A stretch of 64,000 nt of DNA from a virus (Duplodnaviria; Caudoviricetes). The position numbers were made by a program, and so were the translations under genes. The stretch covers positions 12,806-76,805 of IMG/VR virus record IMGVR_UViG_3300022744_000027, one strand, 5' to 3'. The notes below the pieces were generated by a model. It searched no databases and was not told the origin of the DNA. It saw only the letters and a program-made list of their open reading frames with translations. This document shows, piece after piece, positions 2,441 to 33,710 of this stretch; positions within the stretch are counted from its first letter, which is position 1; each line of letters opens with the position of its first letter.

Positions 2441-3578
2441 CCCGCAGCTCATCGCCGAACGCTGGGTCGTCTCCCGGAGCGTCCTCGATCACAGGCACCC
2501 ACCGGCCACGGCAGTGCGGGTGGGCCAGCCCGGCCGGGATTTGCCACATCTCGTCGGGCTCGCGGTCCACCAGCACGTCGCCGACGCGCTTCTTCGGAGA
2601 GGCAGAGCGGCCCACGTTGTTCTTGCCGGGCCAGATCATGGTGTCGGGGTTTTTGTCCGGGTGGTCGGCGGCGACGACCGTGACCACGCGGCCATCGATG
2701 CCGCGGCAAAAGGCGCACGCGCCCTCGTACCGCTCGACGCGCTGCACCTTGGTGCCAGGCTTCAGGCTGGCGATGTAGCCCTGCAGCTGGGCCTCGCCAG
2801 CCTCGGTGACGGCGATGCGCCGCCAATCCCGATTGAGGGCGCCGAACTCGTCCAGCAGCTTGGTCTCCAGGCTGCTGGTGCCCGGCGGCAGGTTGCCCAG
2901 CGCCCTCTGCTCCAGATCGGCGGCCACCAAGGCGCGCAGGCGGTGGCGGGTGTTGTCGGACAGGGCCTGCACGTGCTCGGCGGCGCGGGCGCGGGCGAAC
3001 GTGAGCACGGCCTGGGTGGCGGCAGACAATCCGGTGGCCTGCGCAGCCGACGAAGGCAGCGCCGCCAGAATGGCGTCGGCCTGCTTCGCCGTGGGCGTCT
3101 TGCCTTCGAGGTTGGCCTGCACCTTGCCCATCATCGTGGCCTTGGTGGCCAGCCAGTCGGCCTCGGCCACCAGCTCGCCAGCGGGCAGGTGTCGCTGCAC
3201 CACGTACTCGATGGCGAGAAGGTGGTCGTCCAGCGTCCAGACGGCGGGCGGCAGGCTTTCCAGGTACAGGCGGGCCAGGGACAGCTCGGCCTCGTTCCAG
3301 CGGGAAAGCATGCCGGGCGGCGTGGGCTGGATGGATGCGGTGGGAATGTGATTCGCGCCAGACTGCCAGGCCAGCAGCTGCTGGTGCACGGCATCCAAGC
3401 GGGCCAGGCCGCGCTCGGTGAACAACTCGATCAGGCGGCGCACCAGGGGGGAATCGTGGGGCTTCCAGATTTTGTCAGAACCGTGGTCGTGGCCATCCGA
3501 CAATGCCTTGTAGAGCCCCTCCAGCATGTCGTTGGTGGCGCGGATTGGCACATGCAAGAGATCGAGGAATAAGCCCAT
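2421..3578 (-). CDS. Phage head morphogenesis (MuF/SPP1 gp7-like) minor head protein
   Basis: RIAVTE, CxxC and HPHCRG motifs; late-type promoter. Confidence 0.75.
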   Translation of the reverse strand: MGLFLDLLHVPIRATNDMLEGLYKALSDGHDHGSDKIWKPHDSPLVRRLIELFTERGLARLDAVHQQLLAWQSGANHIPTASIQPTPPGMLSRWNEAELSLARLYLESLPPAVWTLDDHLLAIEYVVQRHLPAGELVAEADWLATKATMMGKVQANLEGKTPTAKQADAILAALPSSAAQATGLSAATQAVLTFARARAAEHVQALSDNTRHRLRALVAADLEQRALGNLPPGTSSLETKLLDEFGALNRDWRRIAVTEAGEAQLQGYIASLKPGTKVQRVERYEGACAFCRGIDGRVVTVVAADHPDKNPDTMIWPGKNNVGRSASPKKRVGDVLVDREPDEMWQIPAGLAHPHCRGRWVPVIEDAPGDDPAFGDELRAILGGA

Positions 3579-3584
3579 CCGGGC

Positions 3585-3600
3585 AGTGTCGCGTCACGAC
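3585..3600 (-). promoter_or_regulatory. Late-type promoter GTCGTGAC-gc-GACACT (leaderless)
   Basis: Motif 14 nt before ATG 3578. Confidence 0.7.
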
Positions 3601-3626
3601 AAAAAAACCCGGCACGAGGCCGGGTT
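3601..3626 (-). terminator. Intrinsic terminator
   Basis: AACCCGGC-CTCGT-GCCGGGTT followed by a T-tract on the minus strand. Confidence 0.8.
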
Positions 3627-3735
3627 CAAAACTCCTGCCCAGGGAGGAAAGGCCGGCCACCTGTAGAGTGGAAGGTCGGCAAGCCTGCCGCACGGGGCAT
3701 GGAGCCCACTACGGCGGCAGAGCGTGCCTAAAATG

Positions 3736-3943
3736 TTGATGGTGGCCGGTGCTGATCTCCGGCTTTGAGGCTATGGGCGTGTGGTGCCGCCCCGTTTTAC
3801 GTCTTGTCCTGCGCCATACAGAGCGGTGTTTATCCGCACTGGGCAGCTCAGGTCTTGCCCGCACCATCTGTAGCTCCACCACAGAACACCGAACAAGTCC
3901 TAGCTCTCACGATTCGCGCATCAGCCTGCGCATTCACCATCAA
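3736..3943 (-). ncRNA. Putative structured tRNA-like RNA (~208 nt)
   Basis: 9-bp closing stem TTGATGGTG/CACCATCAA; hairpins GCGCA-GGCTGA-TGCGC and GCCGG-AGATCAGCA-CCGGC with complementary loops; multi-hairpin insert; no convincing ORF. Confidence 0.55.
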
Positions 3944-4012
3944 TTCAGCACCCGACTTGCCCGGCGCACCAGCTTGTAGCCGACAAGCAGAGGACGGGTG
4001 CTGAATTGATGG
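3937..4012. repeat. Perfect 18-bp inverted repeat
   Basis: CCATCAATTCAGCACCCG (3937-3954) and CGGGTGCTGAATTGATGG (3995-4012). Confidence 0.9.
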
Positions 4013-4177
4013 CTCCGGGCCCTGCCCCCGGAAGGTTGTCGCGGCTCTCACGCGCATCAGCCGGGAAACCCCAGCCTGCCGGTTACGCTATCCGGCTCCG
4101 TGACGAGCAACTGAACTGCTCGCTGGTCGGCGGAACGAACTATACAACAACTTTATCGGAGCAGCGCGTTCACCGCG

Positions 4178-4212
4178 AAAAAATGGTGGCGTGCTACCAA
4201 CACGCCACCATT
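4178..4212 (-). terminator. Intrinsic terminator ending the portal operon
   Basis: AATGGTGGCGTG...CACGCCACCATT stem plus T-tract on the minus strand. Confidence 0.7.
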
Positions 4213-4364
4213 CTAACCCACCATTCGACTACGGGCGAACCCGCTGGCGGGAGCGTTTTCAGCGCATCTGCCTGGGACTGTTACCAGCCGAGGAACCCGG
4301 CTGCGCGGGTTGAAAGTTCTCCCGGCGGTTTAGCCCCCGCCGGACCTGCCAGACTTCAGGTGTT

Positions 4365-4577
4365 CTAGGGCGCGCTGCTGATTCCAAGGAGCATCAAAAT
4401 AAGCGCCTCTTCTTCCTGTTGCCGGCGCTTTCGCGCCAGCGCCTCTGTGTTGGTGCTGGTGTATGGCGACGGCTGCGGAGACCAGTCGTAATTGTTTGTC
4501 GGTGCAACCGGTGCCAGCATTCGGCCAAATGAATTGCCGAATGCCTTGCCAAACGACAGGCCCCATGCTGAAGCCAT
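4365..4577 (-). CDS. Small hypothetical protein
   Basis: Abuts upstream gene; MASAWGLSFGKAFGNSFG start. Confidence 0.65.
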   Translation of the reverse strand: MASAWGLSFGKAFGNSFGRMLAPVAPTNNYDWSPQPSPYTSTNTEALARKRRQQEEEALILMLLGISSAP

Positions 4578-5099
4578 TTAAGCCCCCGGGCCCCATGGGT
4601 CCGTGTCGCTACCCGTCCCGCCCAACTCTTGTCCTCTGACTTGCACCAAGTTGACCGGCAACGGGGCTGCGTGCAGGGCCGCCATCATTGTCGCCCGCAC
4701 TGTGTCAGCGATCTCTTGAGCTGTTGGGGCCGTCGTCCCAACGGCGATGGCCTGGACCGGCTGCTGGTAATTCACCCGCACGGCATACCCACCCAGCGTG
4801 GGCACAAACGGGTCGCCCCCGCCCTCCACCAGCAAAACGCCCTCCGTCACGGCAAGCGTGTGGTCAGCCTCCATGGGGCGAATGCGCCAGCCGTTTTGCA
4901 GGTACACGTAAAATGGCACCGCCGTGCCCTGCGCCGGGTCGATCTGGTCGCCGCCAAGCAGCCGCAAGGCCATGGGGTATTTGCCGTTGTCGGCCGTGGC
5001 GTGCCAGCGCACCCACTCGCTCCACAGGGTGCGCACACTCAAGGTGCCACCAGCGTCTGAAACAATCAGGCGTGCAGTTCCGTCAAAGCTCAGGGCCAT
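4578..5099 (-). CDS. Hypothetical virion-associated protein
   Basis: Likely start MALSFDG (RBS GGAG); N-terminus resembles the neighbouring 465-aa protein (LYSxxVxxW, P+xxLxG). Confidence 0.7.
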   Translation of the reverse strand: MALSFDGTARLIVSDAGGTLSVRTLWSEWVRWHATADNGKYPMALRLLGGDQIDPAQGTAVPFYVYLQNGWRIRPMEADHTLAVTEGVLLVEGGGDPFVPTLGGYAVRVNYQQPVQAIAVGTTAPTAQEIADTVRATMMAALHAAPLPVNLVQVRGQELGGTGSDTDPWGPGA

Positions 5100-19670: not shown

Positions 19671-22600
19671 TCACTCGGTTGGCAGAATAACAGCTTCGAT
19701 CACGTGGCTTGACGATTTGCCAAACCCGTCCGCATCGCCGTCCTTGCCTTTTACAGACAGGATCATAAGGCGAGTTCCAGGCGGCAGGATCATCTCATCC
19801 TCGCCGGAGTTCGAAGATAAAGCACCACCACCAGCAATCGAGTGGTGCCCGACCCATAAACCCTTCACGCCGGGGCCCACGTGTAGCTTCAGGTGCACGT
19901 TTCCGTGCCACGAAGACGGACGGATCGACGTGGACATGATCGCTGGCTCCTGAAGAATTTTCCCCGAGGACTTCAGCAGCTGATCAAGGTCACTGCCGTG
20001 CAGCGAAATCTTGCGCGACAGGACAGTGCCCGGTGCAATATCATGCCCCAGCGTTTTCAAAGCCTCTCCGGCAGCCTTTGCCGCGCCGCTGGGGTTGCCA
20101 TCCCACAGCGAGCCATTCATGGCTTTATACGAGCTGCCAGTGTAACTCTTGACCGCCTGCTTTTGCGTGGCGGGCATTTTTGCAATCGCGGCTTGGGCCT
20201 GTTTGGCATAGGTCTGAGCAGAAAGCGCGCCCCCACCCTCTGCGTGCTTGATTTTTTCCGGCAGGCCCAAATCCGCCAGATTCACCGCCCCGGGCTCGCC
20301 GAGCACAATAAACTTGCCGAGCTTTTGCGCGACAGAGCTGGAAGCCGGACCAGTAAACGCGGGGTACGCAGCATTCAGCGAGTGCAGCGGGTGGCCACCG
20401 TCAAACCTGAACTTCTTGGGCGGGTTTAGCTGGTAGTTGATCTCGTTGACGGCCTGCTGGGCGTAGCCCTTCACGTGCTGGCTCGGGTGCTCCAGCACAG
20501 GCTTCTCGCCGGTGACATGGCCGGTGTCCTTGTCGTAGACCTTGGCCTTCAGGCCTTTGATGGCGTCCAGGTCGCCCGTCTTGGCGGCGGCGAAAACCGC
20601 CTGCACGGCTTCCTCGTTGGCTTTGTTGAGAAACTCCTTCGAGGACGGACCAGAGCTGCCATTGCCGCCCCAGTTGAGGAAGGACGGCGGCGCGCTAATG
20701 TCTTCGGGCTTGAAGACCGGGGCCTTCTTCTTCTTGACGGCTGCGGGAAACCGCTTCGCTAGGTCGGCTTTGCGGGCAATCAGCGTCTCGGCCAACTTCG
20801 TCTTGGCTGCGGCATCGCCGGGCCCGTACTGGTTGACCATGGCGCGAATGGCCACGTCGCTGATGGCCAGCACCTTTGCCGCGCTGGCGGTCAGGTCGGC
20901 CTTGGTCATGCCCTTGAAGACAGACGCGGCCTGCGGGTTTTTGCCCGCGTCCAGCAGGGTGTCGAGCTCGTCCACCTTGGAGCCAAAAGGCTTCTTCTCG
21001 CCTTGGGCGCGGTATTCGAGCGAGCCACCGGCATCCACGCGGTGGGCCTTGCCGTCGGGGCCAACCTGCAGGTTGTCGTAGCCGAGGCCGACCACGTCCC
21101 AGTTGCCCAGCCATGCGTCGACCGCGAAACCGGCCTGCGCGCCGTCAACCTTGGCAAGCGCGCCAGGAGTGGCGGCCTTTTTGATGTCCACCCACTTTGA
21201 GGCAATCCCGACCTTGCCGCCCTTGGTGACCAGCACAGCGTCCTGGCTGGACAAGCCCGCGAGGGCGTACAGCTTGGCCGCGAGCACTTCGGACTTGGCG
21301 GTGTCGGCGTCGGCAGGGAATTTGCAGTACCACTCCTGCCCGCTTTGGTCTTTGAACTTGCCGCCGGGGTTGGAGCCGCCCTGCCCGCCGGTTTGAGCCC
21401 ATCCGTCCATGGGGAGCATGCCGCCAGCGGAGATGGGGGCGGAGGCAGCTGGGGCCGCGGGAGCTGACGGAGCTGCGGGAGCGGCGGGCTTCGCACCAAC
21501 GCCACCCGTCATGGCGTCGATCAGCGCCTGAGCAACCTTTTTCGATGCGGGCTTTCCCTTCGATTCGTTGTCAATCCACGCCTGCAGGCCAGCAACATCA
21601 CCGGCCACTGCCATCGCTTTGAATTTGTCCTTGTTCCCGGTTGCTGTTTTTGCGGCAACGGAGGCCATGATCTTGATTGCGTGGCCTGGCTTGAGGGCTT
21701 TGGTGGATGGCGCCTGCACGGTGGCTGGGGCTGCAGGCTGGTACGACGGGTCGAGCTTTTGCAGCGCCGCATCTGGCGGGATGGGGTATCCCATCGCCTT
21801 CATCTGGGGGAGAATTTCGGCGAGCGTTTCGCCCGGAATGGTGTCGGGCTCGGAGAACGAGCCATCCGTCACGCCAAATTCAAACCCGTCATCGCCGCCT
21901 CCGGCGAGGTAATAACCTTTCCCGTCTTTCTCAAATTCCAGCGATGGGTTGCCATCTAGGCCGGGATTGGATGCCGAGTGGGCCCACCCACCCATGCCGT
22001 CGTCCTGCTTGACCCAGTGCCCATTTTTGAACACCAGCATGCCGTCGGCGCCAGGCTTGGTGTCGCCTTCCTTGGGGCCCTGCTCCACGGTGGTGGGCGC
22101 GGCCTGGGAAGCCCGCTGAGGCTTCGTCCCAGCCAGCGCGTGCCCTTGCAGCTTGTGCGCTTTCTGCTGGGCTGCCTCCAAAGCGTCATCGTAGTCTTCG
22201 TCCGTTTGATTTTCTGCCGGCATACTCTCGTTCACGGCATCCATGAAGTATTCCATGGCGGCGTCCGGGTCGTGGTCCGTCAGCGCCTCGTAGGCCTCGG
22301 CCTGCGCCTTGGTTGGCACTTTCCCAGCGGAGATTGCGGCCTTCCACTCGCTGACGACGGGGTATGGGTCGGCGGCTGGCGGTGGCGGTACCGCAGACGC
22401 AGCCATCATCGACAAGGCGTGCGAGGCGGCGGTCTTGAGCGCGGGGTTTGCTGCGTTCTTTGCCAGCTGCTGCAGGGTCTCGGTTGAACCCGCTCCAATT
22501 GCATCCTTGAGCAGCTTGGACTCGGCGTCTGACAAGCCGTCCAGTGAGACGCCAGCGCCAGCCGGAGCGGGCTGCACAGGCACAGCAGCCGTCGCGCCCT

Positions 22601-24212
22601 CCACACCCAACCCAGCCAGGGCGGTCTGAGCCGTGAGCGCCTGCTTCTTGGCGTAGGTCTGCTTGGCTCCGGCCTTCGAGTCGATAAAGGCCTGCAGCCC
22701 GGCGGTGTCGCCAGCGAAGGCCATGGCCTCGATTTTTGCCAGCGCGGCGTTGTGGCTCTTGGCGTTGGTGTTTTCGGCGGGCAGCTTCAGCTTGAACCAC
22801 GGGATGGATTGCAGGTTCTGCAGCTGCTGGGCGGAGAGTGCGCCAGGGGTGGTGGCGGCCGGCTTTTGAGCAAGCAACGACGAAATGTAATCTTTGACCG
22901 ACTGCTTTAGCCCAGCCTCTGGCGACATCCACTCCTCAAGCTCCGACCACTCACCCTTGGAGGCGAGCTTGTCAAACATGGCCTTAGAGCTGGGCGTCAT
23001 CACGAACGCGCCGCCCTGCGTTTTCCAGTGGCCGTCCTTGAGTACCATCGTGGAGCCGTTTGCCCCGGGTTTTGTGTCGCCCTCTTTCGGACCGGTGTCA
23101 GTCACCTGCACACCCATGGCGCCTGCCACAGCGGCCATGGCAGCGGCAGCGCCGTGCCAGCCTTTGTCGAGCGCCTGCTTATGCGCGACCTTGATGCCGT
23201 CGGCGTCGCCATTCATGGCGGAGTCGTGAGCCAGCTTTCCGGTTGGGGTAGACAGCGAAAAGCCCATCGCTCCATCACCGGGCAGGTCGGTGTGCGCGGC
23301 CTTTATTTCCTCGGGGGTCAGCTTTTTAACAGCCGACTCCACAAACGGCTTGGCCGTGCCTTTTTCGATAGCGGTATGCAGCGAGGACTTGGGGATTGCG
23401 ACGGTATTCTTCTGGCCGGGCACCTTGGCGCCCAGCTTATTCAGGTAATACTGGTCCTCGTTTTGGTTGTAGACCACCCACTTGCCGGCGTTCATCTTCT
23501 CGTACTGGCTGGAGAACTCGAAGACGGTGCCGGTCGAAACATTTGCCTGCTTCTCAGCCAGAACCTTCTGCGCGTAGGCCACGATGTGCGGGTTGTGCGC
23601 GTTGTTGGCGATCACAGCCTCAAGCAAGTCATGCGACCCGGCGTCAATCGTGGCCTTGGTCTTGGGAGGGATTGGCGCAGAGGCGGCGGGCTCGGCTGGC
23701 TCCGCAGCCTTCGGTGCCAGGTGCTCAGGCAGTCCAGTCGGATGCGGGTCGGCGGGCTCGGCCACCTGGGCGGCGGCGTGGGTACCGGGTTTCTGGCCCG
23801 GGGTGACGGTGTGCGCAGAGCCGTGAAGACCAAGCAAGTGGTTGGCAATCTTCGCCAACTTCTGCCCATAGGTATTCGACCCAAACGACGCACCAACGAT
23901 GGCCGTCACATCACCAGCGTCAGACCACGCGCGCAGCTTTTCCAGCGCCTTATTGAAAACGGGCGCGTTCACATTCGAGTCCGGCAGCTTCAGCGCGGAC
24001 CATTGGTCGTCGGTAAAGTGCGCGGCGGCCTCGTGGTGCCCGGCAGACTTGGGATGCGCGGCGACCGGCGCGCCCTTGGGGGCTGGTGCGTCGTGGGTGA
24101 TCTTCCGCCACCGGGGAGGGTTGCCGTAAAGAGCGTACCCACCCTTATGGGCAATCGAGGTGCCGGTGCCGGGTCCGGATTTCAGCAGCAGGATGAGACG
24201 CGGTGTGTTCAT
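19671..24212 (-). CDS. 1513-aa multidomain protein: repeats + HipA/PI3K-like kinase + C-terminal VIP2/Alt-type ADP-ribosyltransferase
   Basis: Kinase: GGQGGSNPGG, WYCK, EVLAAKLY, DAWLGNWD...DN, VDAG. ART: YTGSSYKAMNGSL, LSRK, MSTS, EDEMILP (R-STS-ExE). Confidence 0.8.
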   Translation of the reverse strand: MNTPRLILLLKSGPGTGTSIAHKGGYALYGNPPRWRKITHDAPAPKGAPVAAHPKSAGHHEAAAHFTDDQWSALKLPDSNVNAPVFNKALEKLRAWSDAGDVTAIVGASFGSNTYGQKLAKIANHLLGLHGSAHTVTPGQKPGTHAAAQVAEPADPHPTGLPEHLAPKAAEPAEPAASAPIPPKTKATIDAGSHDLLEAVIANNAHNPHIVAYAQKVLAEKQANVSTGTVFEFSSQYEKMNAGKWVVYNQNEDQYYLNKLGAKVPGQKNTVAIPKSSLHTAIEKGTAKPFVESAVKKLTPEEIKAAHTDLPGDGAMGFSLSTPTGKLAHDSAMNGDADGIKVAHKQALDKGWHGAAAAMAAVAGAMGVQVTDTGPKEGDTKPGANGSTMVLKDGHWKTQGGAFVMTPSSKAMFDKLASKGEWSELEEWMSPEAGLKQSVKDYISSLLAQKPAATTPGALSAQQLQNLQSIPWFKLKLPAENTNAKSHNAALAKIEAMAFAGDTAGLQAFIDSKAGAKQTYAKKQALTAQTALAGLGVEGATAAVPVQPAPAGAGVSLDGLSDAESKLLKDAIGAGSTETLQQLAKNAANPALKTAASHALSMMAASAVPPPPAADPYPVVSEWKAAISAGKVPTKAQAEAYEALTDHDPDAAMEYFMDAVNESMPAENQTDEDYDDALEAAQQKAHKLQGHALAGTKPQRASQAAPTTVEQGPKEGDTKPGADGMLVFKNGHWVKQDDGMGGWAHSASNPGLDGNPSLEFEKDGKGYYLAGGGDDGFEFGVTDGSFSEPDTIPGETLAEILPQMKAMGYPIPPDAALQKLDPSYQPAAPATVQAPSTKALKPGHAIKIMASVAAKTATGNKDKFKAMAVAGDVAGLQAWIDNESKGKPASKKVAQALIDAMTGGVGAKPAAPAAPSAPAAPAASAPISAGGMLPMDGWAQTGGQGGSNPGGKFKDQSGQEWYCKFPADADTAKSEVLAAKLYALAGLSSQDAVLVTKGGKVGIASKWVDIKKAATPGALAKVDGAQAGFAVDAWLGNWDVVGLGYDNLQVGPDGKAHRVDAGGSLEYRAQGEKKPFGSKVDELDTLLDAGKNPQAASVFKGMTKADLTASAAKVLAISDVAIRAMVNQYGPGDAAAKTKLAETLIARKADLAKRFPAAVKKKKAPVFKPEDISAPPSFLNWGGNGSSGPSSKEFLNKANEEAVQAVFAAAKTGDLDAIKGLKAKVYDKDTGHVTGEKPVLEHPSQHVKGYAQQAVNEINYQLNPPKKFRFDGGHPLHSLNAAYPAFTGPASSSVAQKLGKFIVLGEPGAVNLADLGLPEKIKHAEGGGALSAQTYAKQAQAAIAKMPATQKQAVKSYTGSSYKAMNGSLWDGNPSGAAKAAGEALKTLGHDIAPGTVLSRKISLHGSDLDQLLKSSGKILQEPAIMSTSIRPSSWHGNVHLKLHVGPGVKGLWVGHHSIAGGGALSSNSGEDEMILPPGTRLMILSVKGKDGDADGFGKSSSHVIEAVILPTE

Positions 24213-32810: not shown

Positions 32811-33565
32811 TGGCACAAGAGGTGCCCGAAAAAGACCCAATCGCCTTCGCAAACGACATCTGCGCGCCCGTTTTGGCGCTCAAGGACGGGCAGTCGGTTA
32901 ACATTCCCCACCCAGACCTAGTGACCAAGTCGGTGCTCAGGCGGTGGCTTCCGGCGATTAAATACCGCCGAATAACCATCGAGGCCGCGCCAAACGGGAG
33001 CACCGTGACCTTTCACGCGAAGAAAGTGGCGACTTCAAAACCGGTTGGCAGGCCGAAAAAAGACGACTCGATCAGGGCTCGGCTGCTTGAAATATCCGTT
33101 GGAGCCACCGCGATATGGCGGGACGTGAACCCCGTCAGCCTTTCCTCACAGGCCAGCACGCTGCGCAAAAACGGGGTCGCATCCTTCCGTATCACGTATT
33201 CAGACCAGTCGCCACCAAGCGCCAAAGTCGAGCGGATCGACGGCCTTGCCGTCACCGACGGTTATGGGCGCACCGTCCTGATTGACAAGCTGGCGGAGCG
33301 CAGCCTGTACCCATTCCGCACCATGCAGCCAGGCGACCGGTTCACCGCGCTGATGGCGCTCCACACCGGCATGGCCAACATGCGGGCGACTTGCTCCAAG
33401 TTCGGAAAGCTCTGCGGCTACGTTTTCACATGCGAAGCAAACAAGGACGGAAGCATCACGGTCGAGTGCCAATACCGCAAAGACGCTGACGTTACAGAGG
33501 CGGACATTTCAAAAGTCAACAACAGGAAAACCAAGCCACCACAACTGATAACACTGATTTGGTAG
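32786..33565 (+). CDS. Putative DNA-binding protein with three similar small alpha/beta modules and a GRPKK motif
   Basis: LALKDGQSV / LEISVGATA / YPFRTMQPGDRF repeats; flanked by GGTTCCC arrays. Confidence 0.65.
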   Translation: MQEPKQKPMAQEVPEKDPIAFANDICAPVLALKDGQSVNIPHPDLVTKSVLRRWLPAIKYRRITIEAAPNGSTVTFHAKKVATSKPVGRPKKDDSIRARLLEISVGATAIWRDVNPVSLSSQASTLRKNGVASFRITYSDQSPPSAKVERIDGLAVTDGYGRTVLIDKLAERSLYPFRTMQPGDRFTALMALHTGMANMRATCSKFGKLCGYVFTCEANKDGSITVECQYRKDADVTEADISKVNNRKTKPPQLITLIW

Positions 33566-33580
33566 GTGTGAAATCGGGCG

Positions 33581-33614
33581 CCAGTTCCCCGCCCGGTTCC
33601 CCCATCGGTTCCCT
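33581..33614. repeat. Second GGTTCCC triplet, direct repeat of 32520-32552
   Basis: AGTTCCC 33583, GGTTCCC 33595 and 33607 at 12-bp spacing. Confidence 0.75.
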
Positions 33615-33644
33615 TGCAAATAAAGTGAATAAAACCAACCTGCC

Positions 33645-33665
33645 GCAAAATTGTTGCAGTACAAT
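33645..33665 (+). promoter_or_regulatory. Early-type promoter/operator GCAAAATTGTTGC-ag-TACAAT
   Basis: Palindrome, -10, then GCATC 4 nt downstream. Confidence 0.7.
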
Positions 33666-33710
33666 TCAAGCATCACAACAGCAACGGACCCGGGCCAACC
33701 GGGCAAGACG

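What the first reader, a model, noticed from the sequence alone, without database searches (positions are those of the whole stretch)
3736..3943. tRNA-shaped ~208-nt RNA with kissing D/T-like loops and a large multi-hairpin insert
Seen (minus strand): closing stem UUGAUGGUG/CACCAUCAA; D-like hairpin GCGCA-GGCUGA-UGCGC; T-like hairpin GCCGG-AGAUCAGCA-CCGGC stacked on the closing stem. The loops are complementary (GCUGA/UCAGC), so Watson-Crick pairing could replace the tRNA elbow. The anticodon-arm position holds ~150 nt: stem GAG-AGCUA/UAGC-CUC, helix CUUGUUC/GGACAAG, and hairpins UCUGUGG../..CUACAGA, GGGCA../..UGCCC, GCGG../..CCGC, GGGCG../..CGCCC. I recall similar scaffold ends in other proteobacterial prophages but cannot name a family. 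Inference: an RNase P-processable scaffold that displays a variable cargo such as a decoy, sponge or antisense loops.
Basis: partly seen in the sequence, partly recalled or inferred. Interest (0 to 1): 0.75.

Follow-up and report, generated by a model that had tools for sequence, protein, structure and literature searches.

The report
Phage tRNA-shaped RNA chassis with insert
The finding is a real copy of a widespread phage RNA that has no Rfam family or database annotation: a small tRNA-shaped fold locked by two kissing loops, which tolerates almost any insert where the anticodon arm would be, and whose function is still unknown.

Summary
Observation confirmed. On the minus strand, 3943..3736 folds as described (MFE z -3.5).

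It is the window's only match (58.7 bits, E 1e-12) to a covariance model I built from 31 relatives. The family has these parts:
- Closing stem P1, with inner pairs UGGUG/CACCA.
- Linker AAU.
- A 5-bp hairpin with loop GGCUGA.
- A variable insert of about 5-160 nt.
- A 5-bp hairpin with loop AGAUCAGCA that abuts P1.

How common it is:
- At least 120 IMG/VR contigs.
- 84 GenBank phage records.
- 646 of 5426 complete E. coli genomes.
- 30 species genomes, mainly beta- and gammaproteobacteria.

It has no Rfam 15 family and no RNA annotation in the records I inspected.

Stems covary. The loop-loop pairing covaries too: 3 of 3 U-to-C loop variants carry the matching A-to-G. Inserts are hypervariable, 77 clusters in 97.

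Part of the window's 152-nt insert recurs in the excised spacer of a two-piece tmRNA gene in Achromobacter phage JWDelta.

A close relative lacks the element.

Processing by RNase P, and the function, remain inferred. In five loci a tRNA starts 3-10 nt after the element.

The parts
3736..3943 (-). Whole element: a tRNA-shaped three-way-junction RNA, member of the family modelled by R1
   Evidence: R1 hit 58.7 bits, E 1.3e-12, model positions 1-102 of 102. MFE z -3.48. 93% identical full-length copy in L003.
3935..3943 (-). P1 5' strand UUGAUGGUG (acceptor-like). The inner UGGUG is nearly invariant in the family and the outer 4 nt covary.
   Evidence: Outer pairs show GC/UA/AU types with 22-24 double changes in 45 sequences.
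3736..3744 (-). P1 3' strand CACCAUCAA
3916..3931 (-). P2, the D-like hairpin GCGCA-GGCUGA-UGCGC, preceded by the linker AAU (3932-3934)
   Evidence: Stem covaries: 4 of 5 pairs carry double changes. The loop is invariant in the 31 seed sequences.
3745..3763 (-). P3, the T-like hairpin GCCGG-AGAUCAGCA-CCGGC, abutting P1 with no linker
   Evidence: The middle pair appears as CG, AU, UA and GC. Note that the search pattern fixed part of this hairpin.
3921..3925 (-). L2 bases GCUGA, which pair with L3 bases UCAGC (3751-3755): the kissing loops
   Evidence: Among loop variants picked on the L2 side only: U-to-C comes with A-to-G in 3 of 3, and C-to-U with G-to-A in 1 and a wobble in 1. C-to-A (3) and G-to-U (2) are uncompensated. 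On A3 this helix is 96.3% paired with 4 double changes.
3764..3915 (-). 152-nt insert ('cargo') at the anticodon-arm position. Its closing stem is 3908-3901 with 3773-3767, and it holds four or five internal helices.
   Evidence: The family's inserts range from about 5 to about 160 nt and form 77 clusters in 97.
3773..3901 (-). Core of the insert. It is shared (83.7% identity) with the intervening segment of the permuted tmRNA gene of Achromobacter phage JWDelta.
3937..4012 (-). Upstream long hairpin: an 18-bp stem, 4012-3995 with 3954-3937. Its 3' strand overlaps the P1 5' strand by 7 nt, so it is a competing or precursor structure.
   Evidence: The same arrangement with different sequence occurs in L003 and L133. 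An exact complement of at least 9 nt occurs in 18 of 93 members. A fold-based test shows only modest enrichment.
3729..4035 (-). 307-nt block (upstream hairpin plus element) that is absent from a close relative, which carries 34 other bases at that place
   Evidence: An 88-kb DNA contig of run X3 matches 3562-3728 and 4036-4441 and joins across the block (tables 5, 5c, 8).
3599..3659 (-). Downstream sRNA-like tail with a CCUCCC loop and an intrinsic terminator (stem 3627-3605). It is the probable 3' end of the transcript that carries the element.
   Evidence: Sub-threshold Rfam match to anti-hemB: 40 bits against gathering score 49.5, E 2.4e-7. Terminator scan.

Best explanation
What it is (well supported). 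This is one copy of a widespread structured RNA of phages and prophages of beta- and gammaproteobacteria. It has no Rfam family or database annotation. The fold is a three-way junction:
- P1 stacks on the 5-bp hairpin P3, like a tRNA acceptor/T-arm stack.
- The 5-bp hairpin P2 sits beside it, like a D arm.
- The two loops pair with each other (GCUGA/UCAGC), in place of the tRNA elbow.
- The strand between P2 and P3 is an insertion site that accepts anything from about 5 to about 160 nt.

How it most likely works (inferred).
1. It is transcribed inside late-operon or tRNA-island transcripts.
2. The enzymes that mature tRNAs cut it out. RNase P cleavage at a following tRNA, or at its own P1, sets the 3' side. 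Cleavage in the long upstream hairpin frees the 5' strand so that P1 can form.
3. It survives as a compact, nuclease-resistant RNA.
4. The invariant surface (the kissing loops, the AAU linker and the inner P1 pairs) is the working part and binds some conserved host or phage component.
5. The insert is a tolerated or exploited passenger.

In this window the passenger is a 152-nt multi-hairpin RNA. Its core also rides in another carrier processed like a tRNA: the excised spacer of the JWDelta two-piece tmRNA precursor.
For: Family and fold:
- 97 distinct full elements were extracted.
- R1 gave 104 matches in 100 loci.
- 84 GenBank phage records match, including Schitoviridae, Ackermannviridae and a Stx2 phage.
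- 646 of 5426 complete E. coli genomes match.
- 30 of the 48 genome loci that hold the pattern give full R1 hits: 14 Enterobacterales, 11 Burkholderiales and 5 others.

Covariation:
- A1: 96.2% of cells paired, 9 pairs with double changes, 0 of 500 shuffles as high.
- A3: 94.6% paired, 15 pairs with double changes, 0 of 500.
- G-U pairs occur only on this strand.
- Kissing loops carry 4 compensatory changes.

Insert site:
- Inserts form 77 clusters in 97 elements.
- L171, L209 and L210 share the same 26-nt downstream flank but carry inserts of about 32, 84 and 6 nt.
- Freshwater contigs join the two scaffold ends across 44-76 other letters.

tRNA-processing context:
- 19 of 125 elements lie within 1 kb of a tRNA, and all 19 are on the same strand.
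- A tRNA begins 3, 4, 5, 6 or 10 nt after P1 in L174, L270, L165, L219 and L237.
- One copy sits inside a tRNA array of a phage-plasmid.
- CCA starts at offsets 7-9 after the start of the 3' strand in 43 of 148 tails, against about 1-11 at other offsets.
- The insert core lies between the CCA end and the GGGG start of a permuted tmRNA (Rfam RF04321, 95.8 bits).

Late-operon placement:
- Q-like antiterminator genes lie upstream and holin, endolysin or small terminase genes downstream.
- In the window the element lies on the strand of the terminase and portal genes.
Against: - No expression or end-mapping data exist for any member. No RNA run was listed.
- RNase P cleavage of the element has not been tested.
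- P1 plus P3 is 13-14 bp, not the 12 bp of a tRNA. The T-like loop has 9 nt and lacks the T-loop motif.
- ARAGORN and the Rfam tRNA model do not call it.
- The window copy has no CCA after P1.
- Only 19 of 125 elements lie near a tRNA.
- In Klebsiella phage RCIP0108 the element lies opposite to all annotated neighbours.
- Five of ten loop variants are uncompensated, and some copies have lost the L3 partner (L317, L270).
- Near-insertless members, together with only modest insert structure (mean z -0.92, 14 of 94 below -2), suggest that many inserts are passive filler rather than cargo.
- In the long context the upstream hairpin out-competes P1.
- My samples were ascertained with patterns that fix parts of the loops and stems.
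Confidence: 0.45

Rival explanations
1. It is a cis-acting element of the transcript rather than a free RNA. The fold, together with the competing upstream hairpin, would act as a processing, stability or anti-termination signal at the head of late or tRNA operons. It might separate upstream tRNAs or the leader from lysis and packaging genes, or it might modify RNA polymerase as HK022 put RNA does.
For: - It recurs between Q-like antiterminator genes and holin, endolysin or small terminase genes, and between cI and the next gene in a Stx2 phage.
- The downstream ORF is on the same strand in 81 of 115 cases.
- Terminator-like sites lie within 300 nt downstream in 55 of 138 cases, against 29 and 34 in the two controls.
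- The mutually exclusive pairing A:B versus B:C resembles a switch.
- In 23 of 93 members the upstream strand reads GCUCUU, which resembles boxA by my recollection of the consensus.
Against: - R1 finds nothing significant in HK022 (best 16.4 bits, not at the put sites).
- put RNA is a V-shaped pair of stem-loops (PMC9378689, passages read).
- The flanking genes are almost all different: 175 clusters in 215 proteins.
- Some copies sit mid-array between tRNAs or opposite to their neighbours.
- The boxA-like word is absent from the window, L003 and L133.
Confidence: 0.2
2. It is a selfish mobile or recombination-prone DNA module whose RNA fold is incidental. P1 and the shared GCTGAT words would act as terminal inverted repeats or as single-strand DNA hairpins for a transposase supplied in trans. 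Alternatively the two conserved halves would serve as homology arms for module exchange between phages.
For: - Presence/absence polymorphism between close relatives.
- A near-identical scaffold in unrelated phage families and hosts.
- No conserved neighbouring gene.
- Inserts are swapped between loci that share the same flank.
- An HNH endonuclease gene lies next to the JWDelta locus that shares the insert core.
Against: - The indel is 307 nt and its ends do not coincide with P1. It starts 92 nt upstream and ends 7 nt downstream, with 34 replaced bases.
- Covariation in two local hairpins and between their loops, with G-U pairs on one strand only, points to selection on a folded single strand.
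- The element is on the same strand as every nearby tRNA, 19 of 19.
- No transposase or recombinase recurs beside it.
- I did not test for target-site duplications.
Confidence: 0.12
3. It is a self-cleaving ribozyme that trims phage polycistronic RNA. It would play the part that hammerhead ribozymes, and the HDV-like 'theta' ribozymes beside phage tRNAs, play elsewhere (a recalled analogy).
For: - The conservation pattern is typical of small ribozymes: about 35 invariant bases in loops, the linker and the inner stem; covarying stems; and one peripheral site of free length.
- It occurs in tandem and near tRNAs.
Against: - No match to any ribozyme family of Rfam 15, even at E up to 10.
- The junction strands (AAU; a variable strand ending in AA or AU; none between P3 and P1) do not fit the hammerhead core as I recall it.
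- No cleavage data exist.
Confidence: 0.08
4. The loop-loop pairing is intermolecular. Copies would join hand in hand into rings or cages, as phi29 packaging RNA does (recalled) and as the tRNA-island RNAs ROOL and GOLLD do.
For: - Covariation cannot tell pairing within one molecule from pairing between molecules.
- The element is phage-borne, expressed from late operons, and lies near tRNA islands. ROOL and GOLLD are described the same way, and GOLLD's variable linker sometimes holds tRNAs (PMC12286853, passages read).
- Several copies lie next to packaging genes.
Against: - P2 and P3 are both 5 bp and can be as little as about 6 nt apart (L210). That suits side-by-side packing within one molecule, as in purine riboswitches (recalled).
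- There is no Rfam similarity to ROOL or GOLLD.
- No biophysical data exist.
Confidence: 0.07

Closest known systems
tRNA and tRNA-like small stable RNAs in phage tRNA islands (T4 species 1 and 2 RNAs, rnaC and rnaD)
   Same: - Overall shape: a closing stem stacked on a 5-bp hairpin, a second hairpin after a 3-nt linker, and loop-loop contact.
- It sits on the same strand in tRNA arrays, with tRNA-like spacing of 3-10 nt to the next tRNA.
- T4 likewise carries two small stable RNAs directly after its tRNA-Arg (record annotation). Their function is unknown, by my recollection.
   Different: - No sequence or model similarity. R1 finds nothing in the T4 region.
- ARAGORN and the Rfam tRNA model do not call the element.
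- The T4 RNAs have canonical T arms. Here the loop is AGAUCAGCA and the elbow is a 5-bp Watson-Crick kiss.
- The anticodon arm is replaced by a site of free length.
Engineered 'tRNA scaffold' for expressing recombinant RNA in E. coli (recalled, not read here)
   Same: A foreign RNA is placed where the anticodon arm would be, in a tRNA-shaped carrier, so that the cell processes and stabilises it.
   Different: The engineered carrier is a true tRNA. The natural element is not, and whether its inserts matter at all is unknown.
Two-piece (permuted) tmRNA precursor, Rfam RF04321
   Same: In JWDelta the core of the window's insert lies in the stem-closed segment between the CCA end of the acceptor piece and the GGGG start of the coding piece. 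By established knowledge of two-piece tmRNA maturation, that segment is cut out by tRNA-type processing.
   Different: - The window has no tmRNA: ARAGORN finds none, and Rfam gives no tmRNA match at E up to 10 in 3000-5000.
- JWDelta has no R1 scaffold.
- Only the passenger is shared.
c4 antisense RNA of P1/P7 and CI RNA of P4 (RNase P-processed phage RNAs; recalled)
   Same: These are small phage RNAs cut from longer transcripts by RNase P. They have repeated complementary segments upstream and downstream, which resembles the A/B/C strand arrangement here.
   Different: - No Rfam C4-type match at E up to 10 in the window region or at a minimal member.
- Inserts show no excess complementarity to nearby transcripts.
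Purine-riboswitch-type three-way junction (recalled)
   Same: P1 is coaxial with P3. P2 and P3 have equal length and lie side by side, held together by a loop-loop interaction.
   Different: The junction strand that forms the ligand pocket in riboswitches is here the hypervariable insert site, so there is no conserved pocket.
ROOL and GOLLD RNAs
   Same: They are encoded by phages and prophages, often near tRNA islands, and their function is unknown. GOLLD has a variable linker that can hold tRNAs (PMC12286853, passages).
   Different: They are 500-800 nt RNAs with unrelated folds, and there is no Rfam match here. The element's conserved part is only about 55 nt.
HK022 put RNA
   Same: It is a cis-encoded structured RNA near the start of lambdoid operons.
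   Different: - put is a roughly 70-nt V of two stem-loops with a triplex (PMC9378689, passages).
- R1 finds nothing at the put sites.

Membership tests
   58.7 bits, E 1.3e-12, model positions 1-102 of 102, at 3736-3943(-). It is the only hit in the window.
   All are present in the window. They are invariant or at least 90% conserved in A1.
   The samples were pattern-ascertained, and R-scape was not run.
tRNA (Rfam RF00005 / ARAGORN) | Cloverleaf with T-loop and D-loop consensus and an anticodon arm, scored by standard tRNA models | tested here: not met
   ARAGORN finds no gene here. The Rfam tRNA model does not match at E up to 10 in 3000-5000, nor at the 62-nt member.
tmRNA, one-piece or permuted (RF00023, RF04321) | tRNA-like domain with T arm and CCA, plus a tag reading frame | tested here: not met
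   None in the window. Met in JWDelta L002, which shares only the insert core.
C4 antisense RNA and relatives (Rfam) | Match to the family models | tested here: not met
   No such match at E up to 10.
C4 antisense RNA and relatives (Rfam) | Loops complementary to sites in the same transcript | tested here: not met
   For inserts against +-4 kb of flank, the longest complement averages 8.85 nt against 8.79 nt for shuffled inserts.
HK022 put RNA | Homology to putL or putR | tested here: not met
   R1 on the whole HK022 genome with filters off: best 16.4 bits, E 0.03, at 33581-33692. The published fold is different. The put sequences themselves were not compared because supplements are closed.
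RNase P substrate (functional class) | Cleavage by RNase P at the 5' end of the acceptor-like stem | not testable with these tools
   Only context is available: tRNAs lie 3-10 nt downstream in 5 loci, and there is a weak CCA enrichment.
Self-cleaving ribozymes (Rfam families) | Match to a known ribozyme model | tested here: not met
ROOL / GOLLD | Match to the Rfam models | tested here: not met

The most novel reading that the evidence does not exclude
Phages of proteobacteria share a natural, horizontally spreading RNA 'display chassis'. It would be a minimal tRNA mimic whose elbow is a Watson-Crick loop kiss. The host's tRNA-maturation enzymes would cut it from late or tRNA-island transcripts, and it would stabilise interchangeable passenger RNAs. 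Passengers would move between this chassis and other tRNA-type carriers, as the module shared with the JWDelta tmRNA spacer suggests. If so, it would be the natural counterpart of the engineered tRNA scaffold and a new route for phages to evolve small RNAs.
Probability: 0.25. Interest if true: 0.85.

Novelty: new variant of a known kind. Interest (0 to 1): 0.72.

Why it matters
- A roughly 55-nt RNA fold is conserved almost base for base in lambdoid, N4-like, Ackermannviridae and Klebsiella phages and in a phage-plasmid. It occurs in about one complete E. coli genome in eight. Such conservation implies an interaction with something very conserved in the host or in phage biology.
- It has no Rfam family and no RNA annotation in the records inspected. 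In some GenBank records it is covered by tiny 'hypothetical protein' calls.
- It gives a compact model for tRNA mimicry without a T-loop, and a direct test of whether phages use tRNA processing to make other RNAs.
- It may offer a small natural scaffold for RNA expression.
- Adding the family to Rfam would also correct annotation in Stx and other prophages.

Tried and rejected
Searches and tests that led nowhere or argued against an idea:

- Rfam 15. Gathering scan of the window: 0 matches. E up to 10 on 3000-5000: only terminator-driven sRNA look-alikes downstream and a weak nhaA-I hit of 17.4 bits. Twelve member loci at gathering: only tRNAs and an IS1222 frameshift element. The minimal member at E up to 10: nothing relevant.
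- ARAGORN: no tRNA or tmRNA at the element.
- T4 species 1 and 2 RNAs: no R1 match.
- HK022 put: no R1 match.
- PasA/PasC sRNAs. They lie next to holin genes, and the PasA 5' end is made by cleavage (preprint 10.64898/2026.05.13.724894; outline, section 17 and passages read). I asked whether the element is their upstream processing signal. R1 finds nothing in the PasA-bearing phage named there, NC_011356, so no link is shown.
- Antisense-cargo idea: no enrichment.
- Exact-word scans with two words of the insert core in IMG/VR returned mostly chance matches. Only L003 and L133 are related.
- The metagenome scan for the core gave 5 chance hits in apparent coding sequence, plus L278, which duplicates L133.
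- In the genome-contig scan, 18 of 48 pattern hits had no R1 match. These were mostly Actinomycetota, plus three MAGs of other phyla.
- Upstream competing hairpin as a universal feature: the fold-based test gives 78 of 93 against 39 of 93 for shuffled upstream sequence, and a mean of 4.87 against 3.60 paired bases. The enrichment is modest.
- Downstream terminator as a universal feature: present in only 55 of 138.
- Public runs: no RNA holder was listed. X23 is only guessed to be RNA. Parts of the stretch without contig cover say nothing.
- Literature. A sequence-string search gave 0 papers. Keyword searches found no description of this RNA. PMC10690425 predicts 8,495 unnamed candidate RNAs from IMG/VR (passages read). 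Its supplements, which could contain this motif, are closed, so I cannot exclude that it is listed there.
Full report
1. THE OBSERVATION

- P1: UUGAUGGUG (3943-3935) pairs with CACCAUCAA (3744-3736).
- A 3-nt linker, AAU.
- A D-like hairpin, GCGCA-GGCUGA-UGCGC (3931-3916).
- A 152-nt insert (3915-3764).
- A T-like hairpin, GCCGG-AGAUCAGCA-CCGGC (3763-3745), which abuts P1 with no base between.
- Loop bases GCUGA (3925-3921) are complementary to UCAGC (3755-3751).

The MFE of the 208 nt reproduces P1 and both hairpins (-87.8 kcal/mol, z -3.48, 0 of 200 shuffles as good).

Inside the insert, three homologues (window, L003, JWDelta) keep three helices through compensatory changes: the closing stem and the hairpins UCUGUGG/CUACAGA and GGGCG/CGCCC. 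The MFE and the alignment fold prefer that alternative, and one U-A to G-C change supports it. Three sequences cannot settle the matter.

2. IT IS A FAMILY, NOT A ONE-OFF

Rfam 15 has nothing here. A blastn search of GenBank phages found one partial relative, Achromobacter phage JWDelta. Exact-word scans of IMG/VR with two words of the insert core gave mostly chance hits. They did give two relatives:
- L003 is a 93% identical full-length copy.
- L133 keeps the two ends with compensatory stem changes but has a quite different middle.

Most of those carry the 5' motif 60-130 nt upstream. I extracted 97 distinct full elements of 62-218 nt. Only one is longer than the window's 208 nt.

I aligned 31 short ones (A1) and built model R1 from them.
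- R1 hits the window once, at 3736-3943(-), with 58.7 bits and E 1.3e-12. It does not hit JWDelta.
- It gave 104 matches in 100 IMG/VR loci.
- It gave full-length matches in 30 of 48 pattern-bearing loci from species genomes: 14 Enterobacterales, 11 Burkholderiales, and one each of Paludibacterium, Moraxellaceae, a Pseudomonadota MAG, a Magnetococcales MAG and a Phycisphaerales MAG. The other 18, mostly Actinomycetota, had no R1 match.

A member's sequence finds 84 GenBank phage records: Klebsiella 47, Escherichia 19, Stx2 and Stx2c converting phages 6, and others. The records I inspected were:
- a Schitoviridae coliphage (74.4 bits);
- an Ackermannviridae Klebsiella phage with two tandem copies;
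- a Stx2a prophage (67.6 bits);
- a Klebsiella phage whose record gives no family (71.7 bits).

The 62-nt minimal form finds its 5' half in 646 of 5426 complete E. coli genomes, at 713 places, 23 of them on plasmids. 'None' is annotated under the match in all 30 rows listed. In two GenBank phages, tiny 'hypothetical protein' CDSs are annotated in the stretch; some overlap the element.

3. STRUCTURE EVIDENCE

On A1, 96.2% of cells pair, 9 pairs show double changes, and 0 of 500 shuffles reach the observed values. Slid controls pair at 27-53%.

On A3, 94.6% of cells pair and 15 pairs carry double changes. A3 holds 45 R1 matches from 40 sources that I chose and deliberately enriched for variants. 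Even inner P1 pairs change together in rare copies (L148 second copy, L324 second copy, L270 third copy). G-U pairs in P2 and P3 occur on this strand only.

My first samples fixed the L3 loop, so I tested the loop-loop pairing separately. I scanned IMG/VR for copies with one changed base in L2, leaving L3 free. That gave 11 loci and 10 distinct elements.

| L2 change | L3 partner | Loci |
|---|---|---|
| U to C | matching A to G in 3 of 3 | L334, L335, L336 |
| C to U | G to A (compensated) | L331 |
| C to U | unchanged, giving a wobble | L333 |
| C to A | uncompensated | L328/L330, L329, L332 |
| G to U | uncompensated | L337, L338 |

On A3 this helix is 96.3% paired with 4 double changes. 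The pairing is therefore supported but tolerant of mismatches. A few low-scoring copies have lost it (L317 and L270). Covariation cannot say whether the pairing is within one molecule or between molecules.

4. THE INSERT SITE

Inserts fall into 77 clusters among 97 elements. L210 and L192 have almost none.

L171, L209 and L210 share the same downstream flank but carry inserts of about 32, 84 and 6 nt. Contigs from three freshwater runs join the window's two scaffold ends across 44-76 other letters.

Inserts of at least 30 nt are only modestly structured: mean z -0.92 against mononucleotide shuffles, with 14 of 94 below -2. They are no more complementary to +-4 kb of same-strand flank than shuffled inserts are.

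The window's insert is unusual. It is large and strongly folded. Its core (3773-3901) is 83.7% identical to a stretch of JWDelta. There it lies, closed by a different long stem, between the CCACCA end of the acceptor piece and the GGGG start of the coding piece of a permuted tmRNA gene (Rfam RF04321, 95.8 bits, E 5.6e-19; ARAGORN; sequence). The GenBank record does not annotate this gene.

A hairpin motif of the core also appears in L133, not in the insert but at the tip of the upstream hairpin. Run X23 holds a contig covering 3756-3873. No further homologues of the core turned up.

5. CONTEXT

Flanking proteins are nearly all different: 215 proteins fall into 175 clusters. The recurrent ones are Q-like antiterminators upstream and holin, endolysin or small terminase downstream. 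In L171 the order is:
- a 166-aa ORF;
- a terminator;
- two tRNAs;
- the upstream hairpin;
- the element;
- a terminator;
- an 89-aa ORF and a 167-aa ORF.

I read the 166-aa ORF as the antiterminator and the last two as lysis genes. I did not scan these L171 ORFs against any family library.

In a Stx2a prophage the element lies after cI, before the next gene on that strand.

19 of 125 elements lie within 1 kb of a tRNA, and all 19 are on the same strand. In five loci a tRNA starts 3-10 nt after P1. In a 97-kb E. coli plasmid with a tRNA array and a Tad2 gene, an intact copy lies 4 nt before tRNA-Ser and two degenerate copies lie nearby.

CCA is enriched just after P1: 43 of 148 tails have it at offsets 7-9. 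The region is C/A-rich and many tails are related, so this is weak evidence. The window has no CCA.

In the window the element lies on the strand of the large terminase and portal genes, in a gap of about 750 nt. A hairpin followed by a T run at about 4210-4177 precedes it. I read that directly; the scan does not list it. An sRNA-like tail with a strong terminator follows.

6. THE UPSTREAM HAIRPIN AND THE INDEL

In the window an 18-bp hairpin (4012-3995 with 3954-3937) uses 7 bases of the P1 5' strand, and in a 583-nt fold it wins over P1. L003 and L133 have the same arrangement with different sequences. In enteric copies, a long helix ending CAGUGCUCUUUCC abuts P1, and a CACAAC-like word before it can pair with the outer P1 strand. 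By strict and fold-based counts this feature is recurrent but not universal.

An 88-kb DNA contig of a 2025 freshwater run matches the window on both sides. It replaces 3729-4035, which is the hairpin plus the element, with 34 other bases. The two therefore come and go together, and the boundaries are not the P1 ends.

7. WHAT IT MOST LIKELY IS AND DOES

Shown:
- It is a conserved, covarying, strand-specific fold.
- It is a free-length insert site.
- It sits in sense orientation in late operons and tRNA islands.
- It has tRNA-like spacing to following tRNAs.
- It shares a passenger with a tmRNA spacer.

Inferred: it is cut out by tRNA-type processing. RNase P at a following tRNA must free its 3' side in those five loci, by established knowledge of RNase P. 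RNase P or a double-strand or single-strand endonuclease would act on the 5' side. It would then persist as a stable RNA whose invariant loop-kiss surface binds a conserved partner, with inserts as passengers. I put this at about 0.45.

The rivals are:
- a cis-acting processing, stability or anti-termination signal (0.2);
- a mobile or recombinogenic DNA module (0.12);
- a self-cleaving ribozyme (0.08);
- an oligomerising RNA (0.07).

8. COMPARISON AND NOVELTY

It works like a tRNA mimic but fails the tRNA, tmRNA, C4, put, T4 species RNA, ribozyme and ROOL/GOLLD membership tests run here. I found no description of it in the literature:
- a sequence-string search returned nothing;
- keyword searches returned nothing relevant.

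It could still be one of the unnamed candidates in PMC10690425, whose supplements I could not open.

Noticed in passing
L002 (KF787094 JWDelta) 3858-4543: A two-piece (permuted) tmRNA gene with an intervening segment of about 200 nt, just downstream of an HNH endonuclease gene. The listed features of the record include no tmRNA. ARAGORN's tag call (AQQSW...) differs from the frame that the Rfam alignment ends on (...GCUGCGUAA, which I read as ending ...LAA).
   Followed up: partly
window 3599-3659 (-): An sRNA-like hairpin with a CCUCCC loop plus an intrinsic terminator. It is a sub-threshold match to Burkholderia anti-hemB (40 bits against 49.5, E 2.4e-7). Contigs of three freshwater runs cover it, including the relative that lacks the element.
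   Followed up: partly
window 4040-4061 (-): A partial second copy of GGCUGAUGCGCG...UGAGAGC, which is the L2/P2 3' side plus the start of the insert stem. It lies just outside the 307-nt indel boundary and may be a trace of the recombination that placed or removed the block.
   Followed up: no
L133 6940-7030: The GUGCGGAUAAACACCGC hairpin of the window's insert core sits at the tip of the upstream hairpin in this relative, not in its insert. The small module is therefore found in either variable region.
   Followed up: no
L270 (NZ_CP021537) 549-2035; L171 5700-6110; L268 2350-2500: The upstream helices of enteric copies contain T-arm-like hairpins (GGUUCGAUUCC type) and anticodon-arm-like hairpins (GGGCUCAUAACCC type), and a UGCUCUUU word that resembles boxA. 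The whole stretch looks like an array of degenerate tRNA-like units.
   Followed up: partly
L339 (MN045230) 1411-1545; L340 (PV252060) 1482-1580: CDSs of 32-44 codons annotated as hypothetical proteins overlap R1 elements. One of them is on the opposite strand. They are probably mis-annotations.
   Followed up: partly
window 33110-33206 (-): ARAGORN calls a 97-nt tRNA-Ala with the anticodon at position 40. The Rfam tRNA model does not match it at gathering, and it lies inside long ORFs. It is probably a false positive.
   Followed up: partly
window 19671-24212 (-): A 1513-aa protein whose C-terminal end matches ADP-ribosyltransferase and Alt-like PHROGs (E 5e-9 and 1.5e-7). It lies between the packaging genes and a ParB-methyltransferase gene.
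   Followed up: no
window 3729-4035 vs run X3 contig: The 34 bases that replace the block in the relative contain GGUGAAAGGCU and CCGGUGCCA, which faintly resemble the two scaffold halves. They may be the remnant of a deleted element.
   Followed up: no
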